The notes under the pieces are model-generated. The model ran no database searches, was not told the DNA's origin, and saw only the letters and a list, made by a program, of their open reading frames with translations. From an uncultured Acidimicrobiia bacterium (GTDB taxonomy: Bacteria; Actinomycetota; Acidimicrobiia; UBA2766): a DNA stretch of 64,000 nt. A program made the translations under genes and the position numbers. The number at the start of each line of letters is the position of its first letter. Position 1 is the first letter of the stretch. Shown here piece after piece: positions 5,406 to 55,493 of the stretch. The DNA is taken from contig CAYJLW010000001.1 in NCBI GenBank assembly GCA_964370965.1, positions 23,509-87,508 on the forward strand. The letters are read 5' to 3'.

Positions 5406-7118
5406 ATGGCGGCACCGGGGGCAACGGAGAAGTGGGACGCTGTGGTCGTGGGCTCGGGCCCTGGCGGTCTCTGCACGGCAGCGTATCTTGCCGCGGCCGC
5501 CGCCCGGCGCGTGCTGGTGCTCGAGCAACACGACCTCGCCGGGGGCAACTGCCAGGTCTTCCGTCGCCACCACGCCGGCAGCGACTTCGAGTTCGACGTG
5601 GGCATCCACTACCTGGGCGACTGCGAGCCGGGCGGGCTCATCCCCTCGATCCTGCGCGGTGTGGGCCTCGAGGGCCGCATCGAGTTCAACGAGCTCGACC
5701 CCGACGGCTTCGACACCCTCATCTTCCCCGACTTCACCTTCCGCGTGCCCCGTGGGTGGGCGGAGTACCGGGAGCGCCTCGCCGCCCGGTTCCCCGACGA
5801 GATCGAGGGCATCGACCGCTGCGTGGAGGTTCTCCGCCGTCTCGCCCACGAGGCCATGTCTGTGGGCCAAGAGGGCGTCGACCTCTCCACCCTCATGCAG
5901 TGGGGTCTCCGGCCCCTGGGGGACCTCTTCGAGGACTGCGGCCTCTCCCCGGAGGCGGTCGCCGTGCTCGACCACGTCAACGGCCTCTACGCCGGCCCGC
6001 CGTCGCAGTCGTCCACCATCATGCACGCCTTCATCCTCGACCACTACATGCGGGGCGCCTTCTACCCGAAAGGCGGCGGGCAGGTGATCTCGGCGGGTCT
6101 CGTCGACGTCGTCGAGTCCCACGGCGGGGAGGTGCGCACGAAGGCACGGGTCGGGGAGATCGTCGTCACCGAGGGCAGGACGGCCGGCGTCCGTCTCGTC
6201 GACGGCACCGTCATCGAGGCGCCCCTGGTGGTGTCCAACGCCGACTACAAGCGCACGATGCTGGAGATGCTCGGCCCGGAGCACGTGAGCGAGGAGACGC
6301 GCCGCCGCGCCGCCGACGCCGTCATGACGCTGCCGCTCGTGTGCGTGTACGTCGTGATCGACGAGGACCTCCGCGGCCGTCTCCCGAACTCGAACCTCTT
6401 CGTCTTCAACGGCTACGACGTGGAGGGGCACTACGCGGGACTCGAGCGGGGCGAGACCGACAACGTCGACTTCGCCTACCTCTCTCTGGCGTCCCTGAAG
6501 GACCCTGACCACCGGGAGCTCTGCCCTCCCGGGCACACCAACTTCCAGATCATGACCCTGGGGCCGCGTGGCTACGGCTCTTGGGGCGTAGACGGGGAGC
6601 CTGCCCAGGGCGGGCAGTACCGGCGGAACCCCGACTACCGGGCCAAGAAGGAGCACTACACCGAACGCCTCCTCGACCTCGCCGAGCAGGCGATCGGCCC
6701 GTTCCGCGACCACGTCGTCCACATCGAGACCGCCACGCCTCTCACGCAGGAGCGCTACACGCTGTCGAGCGGCGGGACGTCATACGGTCTGCTGCATTCG
6801 CCGGACCAGGTGGGCCCCATGCGGCCCAACTACCGCACCGAGATCCCGGGCCTCTTCCTCGTGGGCGCCAACACTGCGAGCGGCCACGGCGTCGCCGGGA
6901 CGCTGTCCGGAGGCGTCCAGTGCGCCGGGGAGATCCTCGGGCGCAACCTCTTCGCCGAGATCCGCGAAGGCGCCGTCCTCGGCGACCCCGGGGCGCTTCC
7001 CCCGCCGGACGCCGATCGCGACCCCGTCGAGGTGTGTCGCGGCCGGGCGCTGCGGGAGCGCCGGGCGGCCGGCCGGGCGGCTCGCGCCGCGGCGAAGGAA
7101 CACGCCGGGGTCTCCTGA
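5406..7118 (+). CDS. FAD/NAD(P)-dependent oxidoreductase, phytoene desaturase (CrtI)-like family
   Basis: N-terminal dinucleotide-binding 'AVVVGSGPGGLCTAAYLA' and CrtI/retinol-saturase-like architecture. The C-terminal end is uncertain. Confidence 0.7.
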   Translation: MAAPGATEKWDAVVVGSGPGGLCTAAYLAAAAARRVLVLEQHDLAGGNCQVFRRHHAGSDFEFDVGIHYLGDCEPGGLIPSILRGVGLEGRIEFNELDPDGFDTLIFPDFTFRVPRGWAEYRERLAARFPDEIEGIDRCVEVLRRLAHEAMSVGQEGVDLSTLMQWGLRPLGDLFEDCGLSPEAVAVLDHVNGLYAGPPSQSSTIMHAFILDHYMRGAFYPKGGGQVISAGLVDVVESHGGEVRTKARVGEIVVTEGRTAGVRLVDGTVIEAPLVVSNADYKRTMLEMLGPEHVSEETRRRAADAVMTLPLVCVYVVIDEDLRGRLPNSNLFVFNGYDVEGHYAGLERGETDNVDFAYLSLASLKDPDHRELCPPGHTNFQIMTLGPRGYGSWGVDGEPAQGGQYRRNPDYRAKKEHYTERLLDLAEQAIGPFRDHVVHIETATPLTQERYTLSSGGTSYGLLHSPDQVGPMRPNYRTEIPGLFLVGANTASGHGVAGTLSGGVQCAGEILGRNLFAEIREGAVLGDPGALPPPDADRDPVEVCRGRALRERRAAGRAARAAAKEHAGVS

Positions 7119-34399: not shown

Positions 34400-34572
34400 T
34401 CGGCGCCCGGGTCCGAGGGGGGACGAAGTCCCCCTTCGAGGGCGTGCGGTGAGGGTGGTCTGTTCGCTAGGCCGGGCTTTGCCCGGCCGGAACGGCGTGT
34501 GGCCCGGGTGGCGGGCGCGTCGGGGGGGGTGTTCGAGGGGGGACGAAGTCCCCCTTCGAGGGCGTGCGGTGG
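34400..34572. repeat. REP-like composite hairpin repeats: a partial copy plus a full ~115-bp unit (hairpin A GGCCGGGCtttGCCCGGCC + spacer + hairpin B GAAGGGGGACgaaGTCCCCCTTC)
   Basis: The core 'GTTCGAGGGGGGACGAAGTCCCCCTTCGAGGGCGTGCGGTG' occurs at 34411-34447 and 34533-34569, the second time within the full unit. A ~90%-identical unit recurs at 37540-37662 and a reverse-oriented copy at 54947-55030. Confidence 0.6.
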
Positions 34573-34622
34573 GGATGTGTGCGCTGACAGACCCATGCCA
34601 GGGCAACGCCCCTGGCAGCGCT

Positions 34623-34937
34623 TCAGTCGGCGGGCTTGCGCGGGCGACCGGCGTGCTGCATGGACTTCGTGGTGTCGGCACCGCGGGTCATCTCCTGCAA
34701 CCGGCCGACCGACAGGCCGGTGAGCTTCGCGAGCGAGCGCAGACCGAGGCCGGCTTCGCGTAGTTGCGTGAGCGCGGCGGCGCGGATGTCGCCGAGTTCG
34801 ACTACGAGCGCCTGGGCGGCTTCGACGGCCGTGGTGGCGACGGTGTAGCGCTCGAAGGGGTCTTCGACCTTGCGGATCTGTTCGGGCTTCACGACCGCCT
34901 CCAGGTGCCGTAGGCTGGTGGCCTCTTGCGAAGCCAA
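34623..34937 (-). CDS. hypothetical HTH-containing small protein (islet-borne)
   Basis: 'LTQLREAGLGLRSLAKLTGLSVGRLQEMTRG' is a plausible helix-turn-helix. The gene starts 66 bp from the tRNA and its function is unknown. Confidence 0.35.
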   Translation of the reverse strand: MASQEATSLRHLEAVVKPEQIRKVEDPFERYTVATTAVEAAQALVVELGDIRAAALTQLREAGLGLRSLAKLTGLSVGRLQEMTRGADTTKSMQHAGRPRKPAD

Positions 34938-35003
34938 CCGGATCCGTCCGGTGTTGGAGGCGGGGCGTTCCGACGCTCCGCCTCCTCCGCGTCCCGGCGG
35001 GGT

Positions 35004-35095
35004 GGACGGAGGGTGAGGGATTCGAACCCTCGTGGCTCTTGCGAAGCCAACCTCGGAGTATCAATCCGGTGCCTTACCACTCGGCCAACCCTCCG
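35004..35095 (-). tRNA. class II (long variable arm) tRNA, Ser-like by its G73 discriminator; anticodon unresolved
   Basis: The reverse complement is GGAGGGTtgGCCgagtggtaaGGCa CCGGA TTGATAC TCCGA ggTTGGCTTcgcaaGAGCCAc GAGGGTTCGAATCCCTC ACCCTCC G. It has a 7-bp acceptor, T-loop TTCGAAT, a 6-bp variable-arm stem and no encoded CCA. A hand fold gives the anticodon loop UUGAUAC. Confidence 0.65.
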
Positions 35096-35129
35096 CACAC
35101 CAAGAGAATAGCACACCCACCCTATAACG

Positions 35130-35276
35130 TCAAGGGGTAGGGATAACGTTCTCGGTGGCAGGAGGGTTTTCTTCGTCCTCGTCGGCCGCTGGGGCGTCGG
35201 GGTCCACGGCGAGTAGCGCTCGCAGGGCCTCCTCGGGGTCGAGGGGGATCAACGTGCGCTCCTCCGGGTCCTTCAT
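35130..35276 (-). CDS. small acidic hypothetical protein (48 aa)
   Basis: 'MKDPEERTLIPLDPEEALRALLAVDPDAPAADEDEENPPATENVIPTP'. It is translationally coupled to the upstream 70-aa gene. Confidence 0.25.
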   Translation of the reverse strand: MKDPEERTLIPLDPEEALRALLAVDPDAPAADEDEENPPATENVIPTP

Positions 35277-35485
35277 GCTGGCGTGGGCACGCTGACAGCA
35301 TCGAGCGGCCACGGGATCCCGTCGGGCTCGTCACCCTTAGCTTGCGAACGGGCGTACTCCTCCTCGGTGCAAACCCACACGACGGGGAAATCGCGACCTC
35401 GCTTCGGTGCGCCGATGGCGCGCATTCGGATGGTGTCGCCGGATGCTGTGGTGACGTCAAGAACGCTGCCCGGTTCGATGTTCAT
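35273..35485 (-). CDS. small hypothetical protein (70 aa)
   Basis: 'MNIEPGSVLDVTTASGDTIRMRAIGAPKRGRDFPVVWVCTEEEYARSQAKGDEPDGIPWPLDAV' is non-repetitive and protein-like. Its stop overlaps the next small gene's ATG (ATGA). Confidence 0.3.
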   Translation of the reverse strand: MNIEPGSVLDVTTASGDTIRMRAIGAPKRGRDFPVVWVCTEEEYARSQAKGDEPDGIPWPLDAVSVPTPA

Positions 35486-35615
35486 GGTCCGATTATGAGG
35501 ACTGCCAAACCGGCCGCCAAGGGTTATCTGCGCCTCCTTGCGTATGGCAGGACCCTGTGGCAGACTTCTGGCAGCCATCCGGCAGTTGCCGGATGCCGTG
35601 CCACAAGGAGACGAT

Positions 35616-36338
35616 GCCATGGAGACCAAAGACGAGTCGGGATTTCGCCCTCCCTACATGTCCTTCCAGACGTTCTGGTCATTCGTGGGTGAACTGGCGA
35701 GCAAGCCGCTTCCGCCGCAGATCGACCGCTCGATGATGGACACGAAGTCCGGTGGTGACCAGGCGAACATCTTGGGGGCGCTCAAGGGATTCCGCCTCAT
35801 CGCTGACAACAACGCCGTGACGGCCGGGTTGGAACGACTCGTCGTGTTGGACGCCGGAGCCCGCAAGGACGCCCTGGCGTCGACGTTGCGCGAGTACTAC
35901 CCGAACCAGATTGCAGTATCCGAGCAGAACGGCACCGAGAAGTTGTTGCTCGACTCGTTCGAGACCGATTTCGGATACGCGGGCGACACGCGGCGCAAAG
36001 CGATGACGTTCTTCTTGCACGCGGCGCGACACGCTGGCATCCAACTCAGTCCCCATTTCCCCCAGACGCGCAGCGGTTCCGGATCCGGACCGCGACCGAA
36101 GCGGACCACTTCCAAGCGTAAGAACGGCGGCGGCGGCGAGGACATGAAGAAGGTCGTTCCGCACGAAGGCGACACCTACACCGTGACGCTCCCGGAATCG
36201 GGCACGGTCCTGACGCTCACCGTGAAGTCCAACGCCTTCGCCTTGAGCAAGTCCAAGAGCGACCGCGACTTCGTGTTCGGGATCGTCGACACGCTCACCG
36301 GCTGGGCGCTGAGCGGTGACGAGGAGGACGAGCCGTGA
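35616..36338 (+). CDS. hypothetical two-domain protein of unknown function (islet cargo)
   Basis: A helical N-terminal domain ('FQTFWSFVGELASKPLPPQIDRSMMDTKSGGDQANILGALKGFRLIADNNAVTAGLERLVVLDAG...RRKAMTFFLHAARHAGIQL'), a Gly/Ser/Lys-rich linker ('RSGSGSGPRPKRTTSKRKNGGGGED'), and a ~60-aa beta-rich C-terminal domain. No family is recognised. It lies in a lower-GC (~58%) region. Confidence 0.45.
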   Translation, partial: AMETKDESGFRPPYMSFQTFWSFVGELASKPLPPQIDRSMMDTKSGGDQANILGALKGFRLIADNNAVTAGLERLVVLDAGARKDALASTLREYYPNQIAVSEQNGTEKLLLDSFETDFGYAGDTRRKAMTFFLHAARHAGIQLSPHFPQTRSGSGSGPRPKRTTSKRKNGGGGEDMKKVVPHEGDTYTVTLPESGTVLTLTVKSNAFALSKSKSDRDFVFGIVDTLTGWALSGDEEDEP

Positions 36339-36521
36339 GGAGGGACCGGCCTCCGTCGTCTCTAGAAGCTTGCTAGCCCAAGTGACGACGGGGCCGAACC
36401 TCATCCGTTCGGTGTCCGCTGGTTAGAGCGGCACCAGCCCAACCGGGCCGGGGCGACGGTCGCCAGGAGTCCCCTTGGAAGTTCTCCCTAGCGGGTTCGA
36501 TGCCCGTCCGGTCCACAAATC

Positions 36522-37487
36522 CTATCGCCCCCGCAATGGCCGATACGACAGACGCCGCCCGCCGACCTGGCCTACAAGACGTTCCATCCGCTCGGAGTCA
36601 GATTGCTTGCGGGTCGAGTGCCGGAAGTCGAACTCGGTCAGGTAGCGGTCCAGGTGCTCGACGGAGACATGGTGATGCGTGCCATCGAGCGAGCGCTTCA
36701 ACTGCGAGAAGTACGACTCCAGGTCGTTCGTGCTCACGTCACCGCGGACGTACTCGCCGGCCCCGTGATCGACGGTGTGATGTTCGTCGAACTGGCGACC
36801 GATTGGCTTGTACGCCGCCCACTTGTCGGTGTGCAGGACCGACCCGAAGGGCGCAACGTGTTCCTCGATGGCCTTGCCGAGCGTCGCCCCGGTGACGCTA
36901 AAGACCACGCGTGAGCGGACTTCGCCGGTCTCCTTGGACGTGAGCGAGAACACCGGGGTCTTGCTTGTCCCGCGGCCGCTGGTGCTGCAGCGCTTCGACG
37001 CGTGGCGGTTCTTCTCGTTCCCGCCGACGTAGGTCTCGTCCGCGACGATCGTGCCCTTCAGCATCCCGGCGAGTGGGTCGCGGCGCATGGCTTCGCGGAT
37101 GCGGTGGGTCATGAACCACGCGCTCTTCGGGGTCAGGCCGTACTTGCGCTCGATCTCTCGGGCCGACACGCCGTTCTTGCTGGCGCACATCTCGAACACG
37201 ACGAGCACCCAGGTTCGCACCGGGATCTTGCTGCCGTGGAAGATCGTCCCGGTGAGAACCGAGAACTGCTTGCGGCACGTGCCGCACTTCCACACTCGGC
37301 GCTGGCTCATGCTGCCGGTGCGGGTAGCGCGCGACGAGCCGTTGCGGGGCTTCAGGAAGTAGCAGCGCTCGGTGTTGCCGCAATGGGGGCAGATCGGCGT
37401 GCCGCCCCAGCGCAGTTCCTCAAGGAACTCGTAGGCGCTGGCCTCGTCGGGGATCCGCTCGATGATCATGAGCATGGAGATGTCCAT
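36522..37487 (-). mobile_element. IS1595-family (ISXO2-like) transposase gene, apparently intact
   Basis: N-terminal zinc ribbon 'CPHCGNTERCYF...WKCGTCRKQFSVLTGTIF', then the DDE domain ('IVADETYVGGNEKN', 'VLHTDKWAAYKP', 'STNDLESYFSQLKRSL'). IS boundaries were not determined. Confidence 0.75.
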
Positions 37488-37539
37488 GCGGCAATGCTGA
37501 CAGCTAGCGTTGGGTTTGTCAAGTCACACATCGCCCGTG

Positions 37540-37662
37540 CGGTAACGGTGGCCGTTTCGCAAGGCCGGGCTCTGCCCGGCCGGAACGGTGTGTGACTCGG
37601 GTGGCGGCCGCGTCGGGGGGGGTGTTCGAAGGGGGACGAAGTCCCCCTTCGAGGGCTCAACA
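37540..37662. repeat. second full copy of the ~115-bp REP-like composite unit (direct orientation relative to 34458-34572)
   Basis: 'GGTGGCCGTTTCGCAAGGCCGGGCTCTGCCCGGCCGGAACGGTGTGTGACTCGGGTGGCGGCCGCGTCGGGGGGGGTGTTCGAAGGGGGACGAAGTCCCCCTTCGAGGGC' is ~90% identical to the 34458-34572 unit. Confidence 0.6.
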
Positions 37663-53351: not shown

Positions 53352-54947
53352 GTGAGTGACGACACGAAGGCGACGCCCGCCGCCCCGCATCTGGAGGCGG
53401 GCTGGGACGACCAGATCGCCGACCTGCACGCCCGCCGGGAACGGAACCTGGGCGGCGGCGGTCCGGAGAAGGTCGCCCGCCAGCACGAGCTCAACAAGGA
53501 GACCGTGCGCTGGCGCCTGGAGCGCCTTCTCGACCCGGGCAGCTTCGTCGAGTACGGCCTCCTCGGCGACCACATGGATCCGAGCCTCGGGGATCGCCAT
53601 GCTCCCGCCGACGGCGCTGTCTGCGGCATCGGCGAGATCGACGGCCGACGCGTGGCGATCGTCGCCTACGACTTCACCGTTATGGCGGGCTCGATGGGCG
53701 CCGTCGGGGAACGCAAGGTCGCCCGCATGCGCGACATGGCCCTCACGCAGCGGATCCCGATCGTCTGGCTGCTCGATTCCGCCGGGGCCCGCATCCAGCA
53801 GGCCACGGGCTCCACCTTCGCCATGGCGGGGGACCTCTTCCGGGAGCAGGTCGCCATGAGCGGGGTTGTCCCGCAGGTGGCGGCCATGCTCGGGCACTGC
53901 GCCGCCGGCACGGCGTACATCCCTGGCCTGGCGGACTTCGTGCCCATGGTCAAGGGCACGTCCTCGATGGCTCTCGGCGGCCGCCACCTCGTGAAGGCAG
54001 CGGTGGGCGAGGACGTCACCGAGGAGGAGATGGGCGGTTCCGCCGTGCACAACAAGATCTCCGGTTGTGCTGACCTCGAGGTCGCCGACGACGGGGAGTG
54101 CCTCGACGTCGTGCGCCGCTACCTGGGCTACTTCCCGTCGAACAACACCGAGGAACCACCTGTGGGAGCGGGCGACGACCCCGCCGACCGGCTCTGCCCG
54201 GAGCTGCGCGACATCGTCCCCACGGCGCCTCGGCGCGCCTACGACATGCGCAAGGTCATCGGGGTGATCGCCGACCGGGACTCGTGGTTCCCCATGAAGC
54301 CGGATTGGGCGAAGAACATCCTCACGGGCTTCGCCCGCTTCGGCGGCCGGCCCGTGGGCATCGTGGCCAACCAGCCGATGATGCTCGGCGGAGCCCTCGA
54401 CGTGAACTCCGCCGACAAGGCGGCCCGTTTCGTCTGGCTCTGCGACGCCTTCAACATCCCTCTCGTGTTCCTCATGGACGTCCCCGGCTTCATCGTGGGT
54501 TCCGGCGTGGAGAAGCAGGGCATCATCCGCCACGGCGCCAAGATGCTCTTCGCCGTCTCGGAGGCCACCGTGCCCAAGGTGACCGTCATCATGCGCAAGG
54601 CCTACGGTGCCGGCTACTTCGTGATGAACGGCCGGGCGTACGAGGCGGACTACATCGTGGCCTGGCCCACCGCCGAGATCTCGGTCATGGGCCCGGACGG
54701 GGCCGTGAACATAATCTTCCGCAAGCAGATCGAGGCGGCGCCCGAGGAGGAGCGCGACGCAGTCCGCCTCCAACTCGCCGAGGAGATCCGCAAGACGATC
54801 GACCCCTACATCGCCGCCGGCCACGGTCACATCGACGACGTCATCGATCCCGCCGAGACCCGCCAGGCGATCGTCAAGGGTCTCCGCCTCAGCCGCACGA
54901 AGCACGTCGACCGCCCCTGGCGCAAGCACGGCGTCCTCCCCGTGTGA
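53352..54947 (+). CDS. acyl-CoA carboxylase carboxyltransferase (beta) subunit
   Basis: Carboxyl-transferase N and C domains ('GSMGAVGERKVARMRDMALTQRIPIVWLLDSAGARIQQ' and 'GRAYEADYIVAWPTAEISVMGPDGAVNIIFRKQI'). Confidence 0.85.
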   Translation: MSDDTKATPAAPHLEAGWDDQIADLHARRERNLGGGGPEKVARQHELNKETVRWRLERLLDPGSFVEYGLLGDHMDPSLGDRHAPADGAVCGIGEIDGRRVAIVAYDFTVMAGSMGAVGERKVARMRDMALTQRIPIVWLLDSAGARIQQATGSTFAMAGDLFREQVAMSGVVPQVAAMLGHCAAGTAYIPGLADFVPMVKGTSSMALGGRHLVKAAVGEDVTEEEMGGSAVHNKISGCADLEVADDGECLDVVRRYLGYFPSNNTEEPPVGAGDDPADRLCPELRDIVPTAPRRAYDMRKVIGVIADRDSWFPMKPDWAKNILTGFARFGGRPVGIVANQPMMLGGALDVNSADKAARFVWLCDAFNIPLVFLMDVPGFIVGSGVEKQGIIRHGAKMLFAVSEATVPKVTVIMRKAYGAGYFVMNGRAYEADYIVAWPTAEISVMGPDGAVNIIFRKQIEAAPEEERDAVRLQLAEEIRKTIDPYIAAGHGHIDDVIDPAETRQAIVKGLRLSRTKHVDRPWRKHGVLPV

Positions 54948-55030
54948 CTCGAAGGGGGACTTCGTCCCCCCTCGAACTCCCCCCTGGAGAGCCGGGCCGT
55001 TTGCCGCCGGGGCGCCGTTCCGGGCCGGCG
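54947..55030. repeat. reverse-oriented copy of the REP-like hairpin unit at the accD / phage-remnant junction
   Basis: 'CTCGAAGGGGGACTTCGTCCCCCCTCGAAC' is the reverse complement of the 34.4/37.6 kb core. It is followed by a degenerate match to hairpin A ('CGCCGTTCCGGGCCGG'). Confidence 0.5.
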
Positions 55031-55493
55031 GAGCCGTCCCTCCGGCCCCGCTCTGGGAAGGACCACGGCGAGAGGACTGGGCGCTGGCGGGGTGGGGGGT
55101 CCCCGCCGGCACGCGGAGCGCGGCGACGGTGTCGGCGTCGGCGGCTCCGGCCCGGACGGCGGCCTCGGCGAGGGCGGCCCGTATCAGCCGTTGGTTGGCG
55201 GCGGTGAGGGCCTGGTCGCGGGCCGTCTCGGCGGCCCGGCGGGCCTCCTGTTCCTTCTCGAGCTCGGTCTTGGTGGCCGCCTCGTACTCGTCGGCCTTGG
55301 CCGCTTTCGCTTTGAGCTGGTCGTAGTCGGCGTAGCGGTCCCGTTCCCGGCGGAGGCGGTCCTGGACGACACGGTCCACGTCGGCCTGGGTGAAAGCGCG
55401 CCCCCCGTCGTCGGGGGTGGGTGCCGGCGGGCCGCCCGGCCCCTCAGGGTCGGGGGCGGGTGGGGCCGTGGGGGTGGGTGTCGGGTCGGCCAT
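54980..55493 (-). CDS. phage scaffolding-protein-like gene (DUF4355-like), prophage remnant
   Basis: 'AFTQADVDRVVQDRLRRERDRYADYDQLKAKAAKADEYEAATKTELEKEQEARRAAETARDQALTAANQRLIRAALAEA' is a typical actinophage head-scaffold sequence. The 3' end is undefined: the ORF continues as the antisense of accD. Confidence 0.45.

What the first reader, a model, noticed from the sequence alone, without database searches (positions are those of the whole stretch)
34573..37540. ~3 kb low-GC islet bracketed by ~120-bp direct repeats: tRNA, IS1595 transposase and uncharacterised cargo
- Two ~90%-identical direct repeats (34458-34572 and 37540-37662) flank a segment with visibly lower GC (~58-62% against ~70%).
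- The segment contains an HTH protein, a class-II tRNA, a translationally coupled pair of tiny genes, a 240-aa two-domain protein with no recognisable family, and an intact-looking IS1595 transposase.
- No integrase is present.
- The architecture looks like a small acquired islet whose boundaries are the repeat units. It could have inserted next to the tRNA, or been brought by the IS. Such sites often carry defence or addiction modules.
Basis: partly seen in the sequence, partly recalled or inferred. Interest (0 to 1): 0.6.

Follow-up and report, generated by a model that had tools for sequence, protein, structure and literature searches.

The report
IS1595 transposon carrying tRNA-like cargo
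The 3-kb "islet" is one cargo-carrying transposon of the IS1595 family that jumped into a pre-existing tandem repeat, and its cargo includes an undescribed tRNA-shaped RNA and a serine-type tRNA with an isoleucine anticodon.

Summary
The segment 34571-37535 (2,965 bp) is a single IS1595-family transposon. It has 24-bp terminal inverted repeats (19/24 identical) and a perfect 8-bp target-site duplication, CGTGCGGT. The same ends and 8-bp duplications bound 3.3-6.4-kb relatives in unrelated contigs. Deleting the element and one duplication copy restores a clean 120-nt tandem repeat of 2.2 units, so the flanking repeats are two neighbouring units split by the insertion.

The family shares a core:
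- the transposase;
- a 70-aa/49-aa coupled gene pair;
- a 239-aa DUF5343-like protein;
- directly after its stop codon, a ~177-nt structured RNA ending in a cloverleaf with a near-invariant G3·U70 pair. Covariation support is strong and Rfam has no match.

A variable slot in this copy holds an orphan HTH-like ORF and a class-II tRNA. The tRNA has a tRNA-Ser(GCU)-type body with discriminator G73, but anticodon GAU (Ile).

No integrase or known defence system was found. The functions of the RNA, the cargo proteins and the odd tRNA are inferred, not shown. The mobile element itself is of a known kind; its cargo is new.

The parts
34400..34562 (.). Left part of the pre-existing 120-nt tandem intergenic repeat: a partial unit with hairpin (34400-34442) plus one full unit (34443-34562)
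   Evidence: After in-silico excision, TRF finds period 120, 2.2 copies, 92% matches and no indels.
34563..34570 (.). Left copy of the 8-bp target-site duplication, CGTGCGGT
   Evidence: Repeat spacing of 3093 = 120 (unit) + 2965 (element) + 8 (duplication).
34571..34594 (+). Left terminal inverted repeat, GGGGATGTGTGCGCTGACAGACCC
   Evidence: 19/24 identical to the right inverted repeat, and the only other match in the window. The family consensus GGCGATGTGTGACTTGACAAACCC is seen in L046, L071, L078 and L023.
34623..34892 (-). Orphan ORF of 89 aa (104 aa if started at the TTG at 34937), weakly HTH-like; part of the variable cargo slot
   Evidence: Only a self-hit among 5.8e9 proteins. GC3 is 0.86-0.87, consistent with coding. 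PHROG HTH E = 0.03.
34915..34953 (-). Partial duplicate of the tRNA's anticodon stem and variable arm, with the anticodon loop deleted
   Evidence: Local alignment score 40, against a maximum of 23 in 500 shuffles. Contains a 17-nt exact repeat (D10).
35007..35094 (-). Class-II tRNA with a tRNA-Ser(GCU)-type body (7/5 acceptor/T stems, 21-nt variable arm, discriminator G73) and anticodon GAU (Ile). It has a C27·A43 mismatch and a D-loop 2 nt shorter than its Ser relatives.
   Evidence: The acceptor stem and T arm are identical to a viral tRNA-Ser(GCU), L119. Anticodon loop is UUGAUAC here against UUGCUAA there. The same sequence is found in independent assemblies L001 and L002.
35105..35133 (-). 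Promoter-like site TTGACG-17-TATTCT ending 10 nt upstream of the tRNA 5' end
   Evidence: 2 sites found in the region against 0.3 expected. This is a consensus match only.
35130..35279 (-). 49-aa acidic protein (p49), translationally coupled to p70 by an ATGA overlap
   Evidence: Relatives found by tblastn in L021, L040, L046, L075, L105, L107 and L115.
35273..35485 (-). 70-aa protein (p70), divergent from the 239-aa gene; a conserved partner of that gene
   Evidence: Present next to p240 relatives in most loci. 191 clusters among 1.84e9 representatives. A promoter-like site lies at 35492-35520.
35619..36338 (+). 239-aa two-domain protein (p240), a distant DUF5343 relative of unknown function
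   Evidence: 208 homologues, mostly in Actinobacteria. DUF5343 hits 4 of 28 family members at best E = 5e-4. AlphaFold2 mean pLDDT 83, above 95 for residues 10-150. No Foldseek match in PDB or BFVD.
36339..36515 (+). Conserved structured RNA directly after the p240 stop codon: P1 hairpin about 36347-36395, P2 hairpin about 36407-36438, and a tRNA-like cloverleaf at 36445-36514 (G3·U70) with discriminator A at 36515
   Evidence: 36 distinct homologues. On a MAFFT-only alignment, 95.6% of cells are paired against 40-51% when partners are slid, and P2 has 11/11 compensatory pairs. The covariance model gives one window hit, 76.2 bits, E = 5e-12. On the model-fitted alignment, 94.3% are paired and 12 pairs change on both sides. 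MFE is -89.2 kcal/mol, z = -3.3. No Rfam family matches.
36522..37487 (-). IS1595-family transposase (321 aa), convergent with the RNA
   Evidence: PF12762 E = 4e-37, PF12760 E = 5e-13, NF033547 187 bits; all full-length.
37512..37535 (-). Right terminal inverted repeat, GGCGATGTGTGACTTGACAAACCC; contains TTGACA, a possible -35 element for the transposase gene
   Evidence: Homology to L046, L071 and L078 ends exactly at 37535..
37536..37543 (.). Right copy of the 8-bp target-site duplication, CGTGCGGT
37536..37656 (.). Right unit of the 120-nt tandem repeat. It forms the 3' flank of the coiled-coil gene, whose stop codon is at 37657.

Best explanation
**What it is.** The islet is one transposon of the IS1595 family of the passenger-carrying kind ('transporter IS'), spanning 34571-37535.

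**How it got there.**
- Shown: the two ends, the 8-bp duplication, family members elsewhere with the same ends, and restoration of the tandem array after in-silico excision.
- Inferred: its DDE transposase, which carries an N-terminal zinc ribbon, bound the 24-bp inverted repeats. It inserted the whole 2,965-bp unit at the junction of two units of a 120-nt intergenic tandem repeat, duplicating CGTGCGGT.

**What it carries.**
- A family-wide core: the transposase, the p70/p49 operon, p240, and a ~177-nt RNA fused to the 3' end of the p240 message.
- A variable slot next to the left end. In this copy the slot holds an orphan HTH-like ORF and a tRNA-Ser(GCU)-derived tRNA whose anticodon reads GAU.

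**How the cargo most likely works (all inferred).**
- The RNA is transcribed with p240.
- Its cloverleaf has a 7-bp acceptor stem, a T arm, G3·U70 and mostly A73. This makes it a likely substrate for tRNA-processing enzymes such as RNase P, which would define a stable 3' end for the passenger transcript and release a small tRNA-like RNA.
- It may also act as a barrier between the convergent passenger and transposase transcripts.
- The tRNA is most likely a decaying or weakly active gene. If it is expressed and serylated, it would insert Ser at AUC/AUU codons.
For: **This copy**
- Full-length transposase domains.
- Homology of the right end to four unrelated contigs stops exactly at 37535.
- The left inverted repeat at 34571 is the only other match in 64 kb.
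- The 8-bp duplication is perfect.
- Excision in silico restores a gap-free 120-nt tandem repeat.

**The family**
- L071 is 6,385 bp with duplication GAGCACAC, L023 is 3,478 bp with GAGTAGCC, and L046 is 3,296 bp with a 7/8 match.
- The gene order transposase-RNA-p240-p70-p49-[variable]-inverted repeat recurs in the window, L046 and L071.
- IS1595-family elements are usually flanked by 8-bp duplications and their transposases carry an N-terminal zinc finger (PMC8101967). Passenger-carrying IS of this family are known (PMC11891212, citing Siguier 2009).

**The RNA**
- G·U pairs (G3·U70 in 37 of 39 distinct sequences) mean that only the + strand can form the fold.

**The tRNA**
Against: - No empty site could be found. 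The nearest relatives of the flanking coiled-coil gene are only 57% identical and not syntenic.
- Only one copy of the element is seen, and the left inverted repeat has 5 mismatches. Present-day mobility is therefore unproven.
- The RNA is followed by a convergent transposase in only 7 of 40 loci with enough downstream sequence. The p70-p240(-RNA) module also occurs in prophage-like contexts without inverted repeats, such as L003 and viral contigs. The module is thus not exclusive to the transposon.
- Nothing here shows transcription, processing or aminoacylation.
- The conservation of P1 is inflated because P1 was used as the search pattern.
Confidence: 0.9

Rival explanations
1. An integrative islet that entered by site-specific or homologous (Campbell-type) recombination between ~120-nt repeats acting as attL/attR.
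For: 121-nt repeats at 90% identity sit on both sides of the segment. The repeat family is dispersed, with a further copy at 54954.
Against: - There is no integrase or recombinase.
- The element ends are 24-bp inverted repeats shared with unrelated loci that have different flanks.
- There is an exact 8-bp duplication.
- Removing the element and one duplication copy leaves a perfectly periodic tandem array. Recombination between two repeat copies would instead have left a single unit on excision.
Confidence: 0.03
2. A simple ~1-kb IS1595 element landed beside an older, unrelated cargo cluster (tRNA, small genes, p240). The inverted-repeat-like sequence at 34571 would then be a chance match or a relic.
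For: - The left inverted repeat is degenerate (19/24).
- The p70-p240 module exists elsewhere without a transposase.
- The slot (34571-35099) has host-like GC of 0.69, against 0.64 for the core.
Against: - No inverted-repeat match lies near the transposase stop codon or anywhere else in the window.
- The 8-bp duplication pairs 34563-34570 with 37536-37543, not with a site near 36520.
- Complete relatives enclose the same genes within perfect inverted repeats (L046, L071).
Confidence: 0.04
3. The tRNA is the point of the element: an expressed tRNA charged by SerRS that reads Ile codons. It would act as a toxic or stress-inducing mistranslator, or as a decoy, carried by the transposon.
For: - Serine identity features are present: a long variable arm and G73, which are what SerRS recognises while ignoring the anticodon (PMC7609411).
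- Rfam tRNA score is 60 bits.
- A promoter-like site lies 10 nt upstream.
- The sequence is identical in independent assemblies.
- A second Ser-type tRNA with a Phe anticodon (GAA) was seen in a viral contig.
Against: - The anticodon differs from GCU by a single base.
- The tRNA has a C27·A43 mismatch, a D-loop 2 nt shorter than Ser relatives, and a truncated duplicate beside it. These all look like decay.
- It was found in no other family member.
- AUC is expected to be the main Ile codon in a genome this GC-rich (general knowledge, not measured here), so strong expression should be harmful.
Confidence: 0.3
4. The 'RNA' after p240 is only a pair of terminator hairpins plus a decayed tRNA gene or attachment-site remnant, with no function of its own.
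For: - It lies at a 3' gene end between convergent genes.
- P1 is a GC-rich hairpin.
- No tRNA finder and no Rfam model accepts the cloverleaf.
Against: - All four cloverleaf helices and P2 are kept by compensatory changes across sequences from many genera. G3·U70 is near-invariant. A decaying remnant would not keep this.
- There is no U-tract (no terminator-like sites).
- The distance from the p240 stop codon is fixed.
Confidence: 0.15

Closest known systems
Passenger-carrying insertion sequences ('transporter IS', tIS) of the IS1595 family, e.g. ISNha5 (Siguier, Gagnevin & Chandler 2009, as cited in PMC11891212; family features in PMC8101967)
   Same: A single DDE transposase with an N-terminal zinc ribbon, short terminal inverted repeats, an 8-bp target duplication, and extra genes enclosed between the inverted repeats.
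   Different: The cargo here is a conserved operon of unknown function plus a structured tRNA-like RNA and, in this copy, a tRNA gene. I know of no IS1595 member described with RNA cargo, though ISfinder could not be queried. The ends GGCGATG resemble the ISPna2-group consensus GGCnnTG only as I recall it.
allo-tRNAs (Mukai et al. 2017, PMC5389517; review PMC7609411)
   Same: Serine-identity, long-variable-arm tRNAs carrying non-serine anticodons. They are found near transposon-related and toxin-antitoxin genes. Some are active missense suppressors and others are inactive.
   Different: allo-tRNAs are defined by 8/4 or 9/3 acceptor/T-stem geometry. This tRNA is a canonical 7/5 tRNA-Ser(GCU) type, one base away from a serine anticodon.
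tRNA-like domain of tmRNA and tRNA-Ala minihelices (G3·U70 as the AlaRS identity element; Hou & Schimmel 1988, as cited in PMC7609411)
   Same: A 7-bp acceptor stem with G1-C, G2-C and G3·U70, mostly A73, and a T arm with a 7-nt T-loop stacked on it.
   Different: - There is no messenger-like domain or tag reading frame, and ARAGORN finds no tmRNA.
- The 5' strand of the acceptor stem lies ~106 nt inside a longer transcript.
- The D arm is a 4-bp/4-nt hairpin with no 8-9 linker.
- The central arm has a 12-14-nt loop with a conserved CCUUGGAAG motif.
- CCA is rarely encoded.
- Rfam tRNA-Sec scores 16 bits and permuted tmRNA 8 bits, both far below threshold.
tRNA-like processing elements at mRNA 3' ends, such as mascRNA of MALAT1 (my own knowledge)
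   Same: A cloverleaf at the 3' end of a longer transcript that could recruit RNase P.
   Different: The known examples are eukaryotic or viral. No processing has been shown here.

Membership tests
IS1595-family insertion sequence / transporter IS | Transposase with a DDE_Tnp_IS1595 catalytic domain | tested here: met
   PF12762 E = 4.4e-37 covering 1-151 of 153 positions; NF033547 186.7 bits against a cut-off of 75.
IS1595-family insertion sequence / transporter IS | N-terminal zinc-ribbon domain | tested here: met
   PF12760 E = 5.4e-13 covering 1-46 of 46 positions. The feature is described in PMC8101967.
IS1595-family insertion sequence / transporter IS | Terminal inverted repeats bounding the element | tested here: met
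   34571-34594 and 37512-37535, 19/24 identical. The same sequence ends relatives L046, L071, L023 and L078.
IS1595-family insertion sequence / transporter IS | 8-bp target-site duplication | tested here: met
   CGTGCGGT on both sides. L071 and L023 also have perfect 8-bp duplications and L046 has 7/8.
IS1595-family insertion sequence / transporter IS | Passenger genes enclosed by the inverted repeats (defines a tIS) | tested here: met
   Four ORFs, one tRNA and one structured RNA lie inside the inverted repeats.
IS1595-family insertion sequence / transporter IS | Subgroup assignment by end consensus (ISPna2 group, GGCnnTG) | tested here: inconclusive
   The right inverted repeat starts GGCGATG and the left starts GGGGATG. 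The consensus is recalled from memory and ISfinder was not available.
IS1595-family insertion sequence / transporter IS | Demonstrated transposition | not testable with these tools
   Only one copy is visible. All 23 contigs that carry it have the same flanks.
tRNA-Ser (bacterial class II) | Long variable arm and discriminator G73 (SerRS identity elements) | tested here: met
   21-nt variable arm and G73. The acceptor stem and T arm are identical to tRNA-Ser(GCU) of L119. The identity rule is from PMC7609411.
tRNA-Ser (bacterial class II) | A serine anticodon (NGA or GCU) | tested here: not met
   The anticodon is GAU in a 7-nt loop, UUGAUAC.
tRNA-Ile | Class-I body (short variable region) | tested here: not met
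   The tRNA is 88 nt with a 21-nt variable arm and G73. Only the anticodon is Ile-like.
allo-tRNA | 8/4 or 9/3 acceptor/T-stem configuration | tested here: not met
   The acceptor stem is 7 bp (GGAGGGU/ACCCUCC) and the T stem is 5 bp (GAGGG/CCCUC) (alignment).
allo-tRNA | Serine identity combined with a non-serine anticodon | tested here: met
   By sequence only. Charging was not tested.
tRNA / tmRNA (for the RNA at 36445-36515) | Recognition by the curated models | tested here: not met
   ARAGORN finds nothing. The best Rfam matches are tRNA-Sec at 16.4 bits (gathering score 47) and tmRNA_permuted at 8.4 bits (gathering score 47).
tRNA / tmRNA (for the RNA at 36445-36515) | Cloverleaf with a 7-bp acceptor stem and a 5-bp T arm with a 7-nt loop | tested here: met
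   This is the MFE fold of most of 17 representative sequences. 94.3% of cells are paired and 12 pairs show two-sided changes.
tRNA / tmRNA (for the RNA at 36445-36515) | Alanine identity (G3·U70, A73) and aminoacylation | tested here: inconclusive
   G3·U70 is present in 37 of 39 distinct sequences, and the discriminator is A in most. Charging cannot be tested here.
Integrase-mediated genomic island | Tyrosine or serine recombinase and attachment-site repeats created by integration | tested here: not met
   No recombinase domain was found. The repeats are pre-existing tandem units.
Known anti-phage defence systems (PADLOC-DB 2.0) | A profile match to a system component | tested here: not met
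   No cargo protein has a hit at E <= 0.1.
DUF5343 (PF17278), for p240 | Score above the Pfam gathering threshold | tested here: not met
   The window protein has no hit. 4 of 28 relatives match weakly, at best E = 5e-4. A true DUF5343 protein (E = 3e-23) is separate cargo in L071.

The most novel reading that the evidence does not exclude
This IS1595 transposon lineage may use RNA cargo that plugs into the host's tRNA machinery.
- The conserved cloverleaf (G3·U70, A73) at the end of the passenger transcript would be cut out by RNase P, CCA-tailed and alanylated.
- It would then act in trans, for example as a decoy or antidote for tRNA-targeting nucleases (NYN and other nucleases take its place in related loci), or as a controller of transposase expression.
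- The copy in this window would additionally express a seryl-tRNA that reads isoleucine codons.

Taken together, this would be a transposon that manipulates translation.
Probability: 0.12. Interest if true: 0.8.

Novelty: new variant of a known kind. Interest (0 to 1): 0.5.

Why it matters
- **It settles the anatomy.** An apparent repeat-bounded 'island' is a single transposition event with exact ends. This is useful for annotation, and it shows how tandem repeats can mimic attachment sites.
- **It defines a transposon family.** These 3-6.4-kb IS1595 transposons, from Actinobacteria genomes and soil metagenomes, share a fixed core and a variable cargo slot.
- **The core includes a structured RNA absent from Rfam.** The RNA has strong covariation and a tRNA-like end bearing the alanine identity pair. 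If it is processed or charged, it would be a new way for a bacterial mobile element to use tRNA mimicry.
- **The Ser-type tRNA with an Ile anticodon** adds a natural candidate, in canonical 7/5 geometry, to the short list of possible mistranslating tRNAs on mobile DNA.

Tried and rejected
- **Similarity to annotated mobile DNA.** blastn of the islet against annotated phages and plasmids found no match.
- **Defence and family profiles.** PADLOC, PHROGs, NCBIfam and Pfam gave nothing useful for the cargo proteins.
- **Empty-site and synteny test.** Homologues of the flanking coiled-coil gene are at most 57% identical and sit in different neighbourhoods, so no presence/absence comparison was possible.
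- **Inverted repeats around the transposase gene alone.** None found.
- **An acceptor-like repeat upstream of the tRNA (35154-35167).** Not significant.
- **Viral scan for the tRNA's anticodon stem-loop.** It hit only an ordinary class-I tRNA in a jumbo phage.
- **p70.** Its matches to large proteins fall in proteins made of Ig-like repeats and are uninformative.
- **Ideas about the RNA.** I considered a kissing interaction between the P1 loop (CUUGACAG) and the P2 loop (CUGUCA). I also considered pairing of the 5' GGAGG with the central arm's CCUCC. Neither covaries, by inspection.
- **HTH ORF.** A homologue search found only the ORF itself.
- **Literature.** Nothing was found on DUF5343 or on transposon-borne tRNA-like RNAs.

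Full report
**1. The observation**

The repeats are real. The repeat finder reports a 121-nt direct repeat at 34443-34563 and 37536-37656, 90% identical, plus a 58-nt sub-repeat in three copies. The sub-repeat carries the hairpin GGGGGACGAAGTCCCCC, which occurs four times in the window, the fourth at 54954 on the minus strand, against 0.17 expected. The fourth copy is a diverged version of the same ~120-nt unit and, like the copy at 37631, starts a few bases after a gene's stop codon. The unit is strongly structured on the minus strand (-68.6 kcal/mol, z = -5.3).

GC content is lower inside the segment but less than stated: 0.650 for 34571-37535 against 0.709 for the window. One exception is the 'HTH protein'. 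It is an orphan whose only match in 5.8 billion proteins is itself, although its GC3 of 0.86 fits a coding frame.

**2. What the segment is**

I compared the region upstream of the transposase start in five loci that encode related transposases. They share the sequence ...GGGTTTGTCAAGTCACACATCGCC, and similarity stops abruptly after it. In the window that point is 37535.

Read from the outside, this end is GGCGATGTGTGACTTGACAAACCC. The only other match in the window is GGGGATGTGTGCGCTGACAGACCC at 34571-34594 on the plus strand, 19 of 24 identical. The 8 bases outside each end are both CGTGCGGT.

The same 24-bp ends in inverted orientation bound elements in unrelated contigs:
- L071: 6,385 bp, duplication GAGCACAC.
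- L023: 3,478 bp, duplication GAGTAGCC.
- L046: 3,296 bp, AGTTATCC/GGTTATCC.

The transposase matches the IS1595 DDE and zinc-ribbon models over their full length. The IS1595 family is described as usually making 8-bp duplications and as carrying this zinc finger (PMC8101967). It also includes 'transporter IS' with passenger genes (PMC11891212, citing Siguier et al. 2009). The islet is therefore one such element, 34571-37535.

**3. The flanking ~120-nt repeats**

Removing 34571-37535 and one copy of the duplication gives a sequence in which TRF finds a 120-nt period, 2.2 copies, 92% matches and no indels. The arithmetic agrees: the repeat spacing of 3093 equals 120 + 2965 + 8. The two 'bracketing' repeats are therefore neighbouring units of an intergenic tandem array. 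The array lay between the coiled-coil gene and the MMPL gene before the insertion. The transposon landed exactly at a unit junction.

An empty site in a relative could not be obtained. The nearest homologues of the coiled-coil gene are 57% identical and not syntenic. All 23 contigs that carry the 239-aa protein show the same locus.

**4. The family and its cargo**

The 239-aa protein (p240) has 208 homologues, mostly from Actinobacteria and soil metagenomes. In nearly all loci fetched from genomes, viral contigs and metagenomes, a p70 homologue lies divergently about 130 bp upstream. The full set of transposase, p240, p70 and p49 recurs in L046. Subsets that include the transposase recur in L071, L078, L100, L114, L115 and L040.

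In the window, L046 and L071 the gene order is the same: inverted repeat, transposase, RNA, p240, p70 (and p49 where detected), a variable segment, inverted repeat. The variable segment differs between copies:
- the window: an orphan ORF plus a tRNA;
- L046: a 198-aa ORF that looks membrane-like by sequence (not tested);
- L071: DUF4145, a true DUF5343 protein and a 447-aa ORF that looks like an XRE-type HTH regulator with TPR repeats (the last by inspection only).

p240 folds with high confidence into a helical N-domain and a small beta C-domain. It matches nothing in PDB or BFVD and relates only weakly to DUF5343. Where p240 relatives lack the RNA, the next gene is NYN, DUF3800, HNH-plus-helicase or DUF4417. 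That pattern hints at a modular system with exchangeable effectors, but PADLOC recognises none of the cargo.

**5. The structured RNA**

In three genera the sequence directly after the p240 stop codon begins TGAGGAGGG and ends ...CCCGTCCGGTCCA. A pattern built on its first hairpin retrieved 72 metagenome stretches. Most of these show the same architecture, giving 36 distinct sequences.

RNAalifold on a sequence-only MAFFT alignment of 33 sequences predicts four elements:
- P1;
- a variable P2;
- a 7-bp stem closing a short hairpin;
- a T-arm-like hairpin.

On that alignment 95.6% of cells pair, against 40-51% when partners are slid, and all 11 pairs of P2 show two-sided changes. Single-sequence folding gives a four-arm cloverleaf in most of 17 representatives.

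A covariance model of the cloverleaf finds exactly one site in the window (36445-36518, 76 bits, E = 5e-12) and 52 sites in the loci. On the model-fitted alignment 94.3% of cells pair and 12 of 20 pairs change on both sides.

The third acceptor pair is G·U in 37 of 39 distinct sequences and the following base is mostly A. Because of these G·U pairs, only the plus strand can form the fold.

No Rfam family matches. The best sub-threshold hit is tRNA-Sec at 16 bits.

Caveats:
- P1's conservation is partly an artefact of the search pattern.
- Transcription and processing are not shown.
- The RNA is followed by a convergent transposase in only 7 of 40 informative loci, so it belongs to the p240 module rather than to the transposase.

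**6. The tRNA**

The 88-nt gene has a 7/5 acceptor/T geometry, a 21-nt variable arm and G73. These are serine identity features (PMC7609411). Its anticodon loop is UUGAUAC, giving anticodon GAU.

Its acceptor stem and T arm are identical, and its D arm nearly so, to a viral tRNA-Ser(GCU) whose loop is UUGCUAA. The simplest origin is therefore a C35-to-A change in a tRNA-Ser(GCU).

Three features look like decay:
- a C27·A43 mismatch;
- a D-loop 2 nt shorter than its Ser relatives;
- a 39-nt truncated duplicate just downstream.

Two features speak for it being a real, possibly expressed gene. A promoter-like site ends 10 nt before its 5' end, and the sequence is the same in independent assemblies. 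The nearest concept in the literature is the allo-tRNAs, but those are defined by 8/4 or 9/3 geometry (PMC5389517), which this tRNA lacks. I put about 0.3 on it being an active mistranslating tRNA.

**7. Verdict**

The mobile element is a known kind: an IS1595-family passenger-carrying IS. Its identity, ends and insertion mechanism are well supported. What is new is the family itself, its conserved but uncharacterised operon, the tRNA-like RNA that is absent from Rfam, and the anticodon-altered Ser-type tRNA in this copy.

Noticed in passing
window 54930-55040 (-): A fourth, diverged copy of the ~120-nt hairpin-bearing repeat unit. It starts right after the stop codon of a plus-strand gene. 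The unit looks like a dispersed 3'-flank repeat family of this genome.
   Followed up: partly
L120 7283-7370 (-), viral contig IMGVR_UViG_3300020202_000139: A class-II, Ser-type tRNA whose acceptor stem, T arm and G73 are identical to the window's tRNA. Its anticodon loop is CUGAAAA, giving anticodon GAA (Phe), one base from Ser GGA. This is a second candidate Ser-body tRNA with a non-Ser anticodon, carried on a phage contig.
   Followed up: partly
window 36336-36350 and the same position in most RNA loci (e.g. L046, L071, L005): The p240 stop codon overlaps a conserved mini-ORF, AUG AGG AGG GNN UGA/UAA. It has two rare Arg codons and is also a strong Shine-Dalgarno-like GGAGG. In the window the stop of this mini-ORF is lost, giving 13 codons. 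Its meaning is unknown.
   Followed up: no
L013, L025, L024, L026, L012 (directly downstream of the p240 homologue): Where the RNA is absent, the position after p240 is taken by NYN-domain, DUF3800, HNH+ResIII helicase or DUF4417 genes. The effector position appears exchangeable, as in defence-island systems.
   Followed up: partly
L071 1400-7784: A 6.4-kb family member with perfect inverted repeats and duplication GAGCACAC. Besides the core it carries DUF4145, a bona fide DUF5343 protein and a 447-aa ORF that looks like an XRE-TPR regulator.
   Followed up: partly
right inverted repeat 37512-37535, and loops of the RNA (P1 loop and central-arm loop in several loci): The heptamer CTTGACA occurs in the terminal inverted repeat, in the P1 loop (CCTTGACAG) of many homologues, and in the central-arm loop of some (L057, L092). 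It could be a shared protein-binding motif or a coincidence with a -35 box.
   Followed up: no
L003 / L009 (Gordonia sp. ABSL11-1), about 5680-6874: The p70-p240-RNA module (short RNA form, CCA encoded) lies next to genes with phage-protein-like domains (Gp77, DUF7572). No transposase homologue or family inverted repeat was detected. The module therefore also appears to travel on prophage-like DNA.
   Followed up: partly
L116 10-97 (+), jumbo-phage contig IMGVR_UViG_3300036781_000418: ARAGORN calls an 88-nt 'tRNA-Met (CAT)', unusually long for tRNA-Met. It lies near two tRNA-Ser genes.
   Followed up: no
L097 28-67 (-): The P1 hairpin is followed by the reverse complement of its own upstream sequence. 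This is probably a fold-back assembly artefact at the strong hairpin.
   Followed up: no
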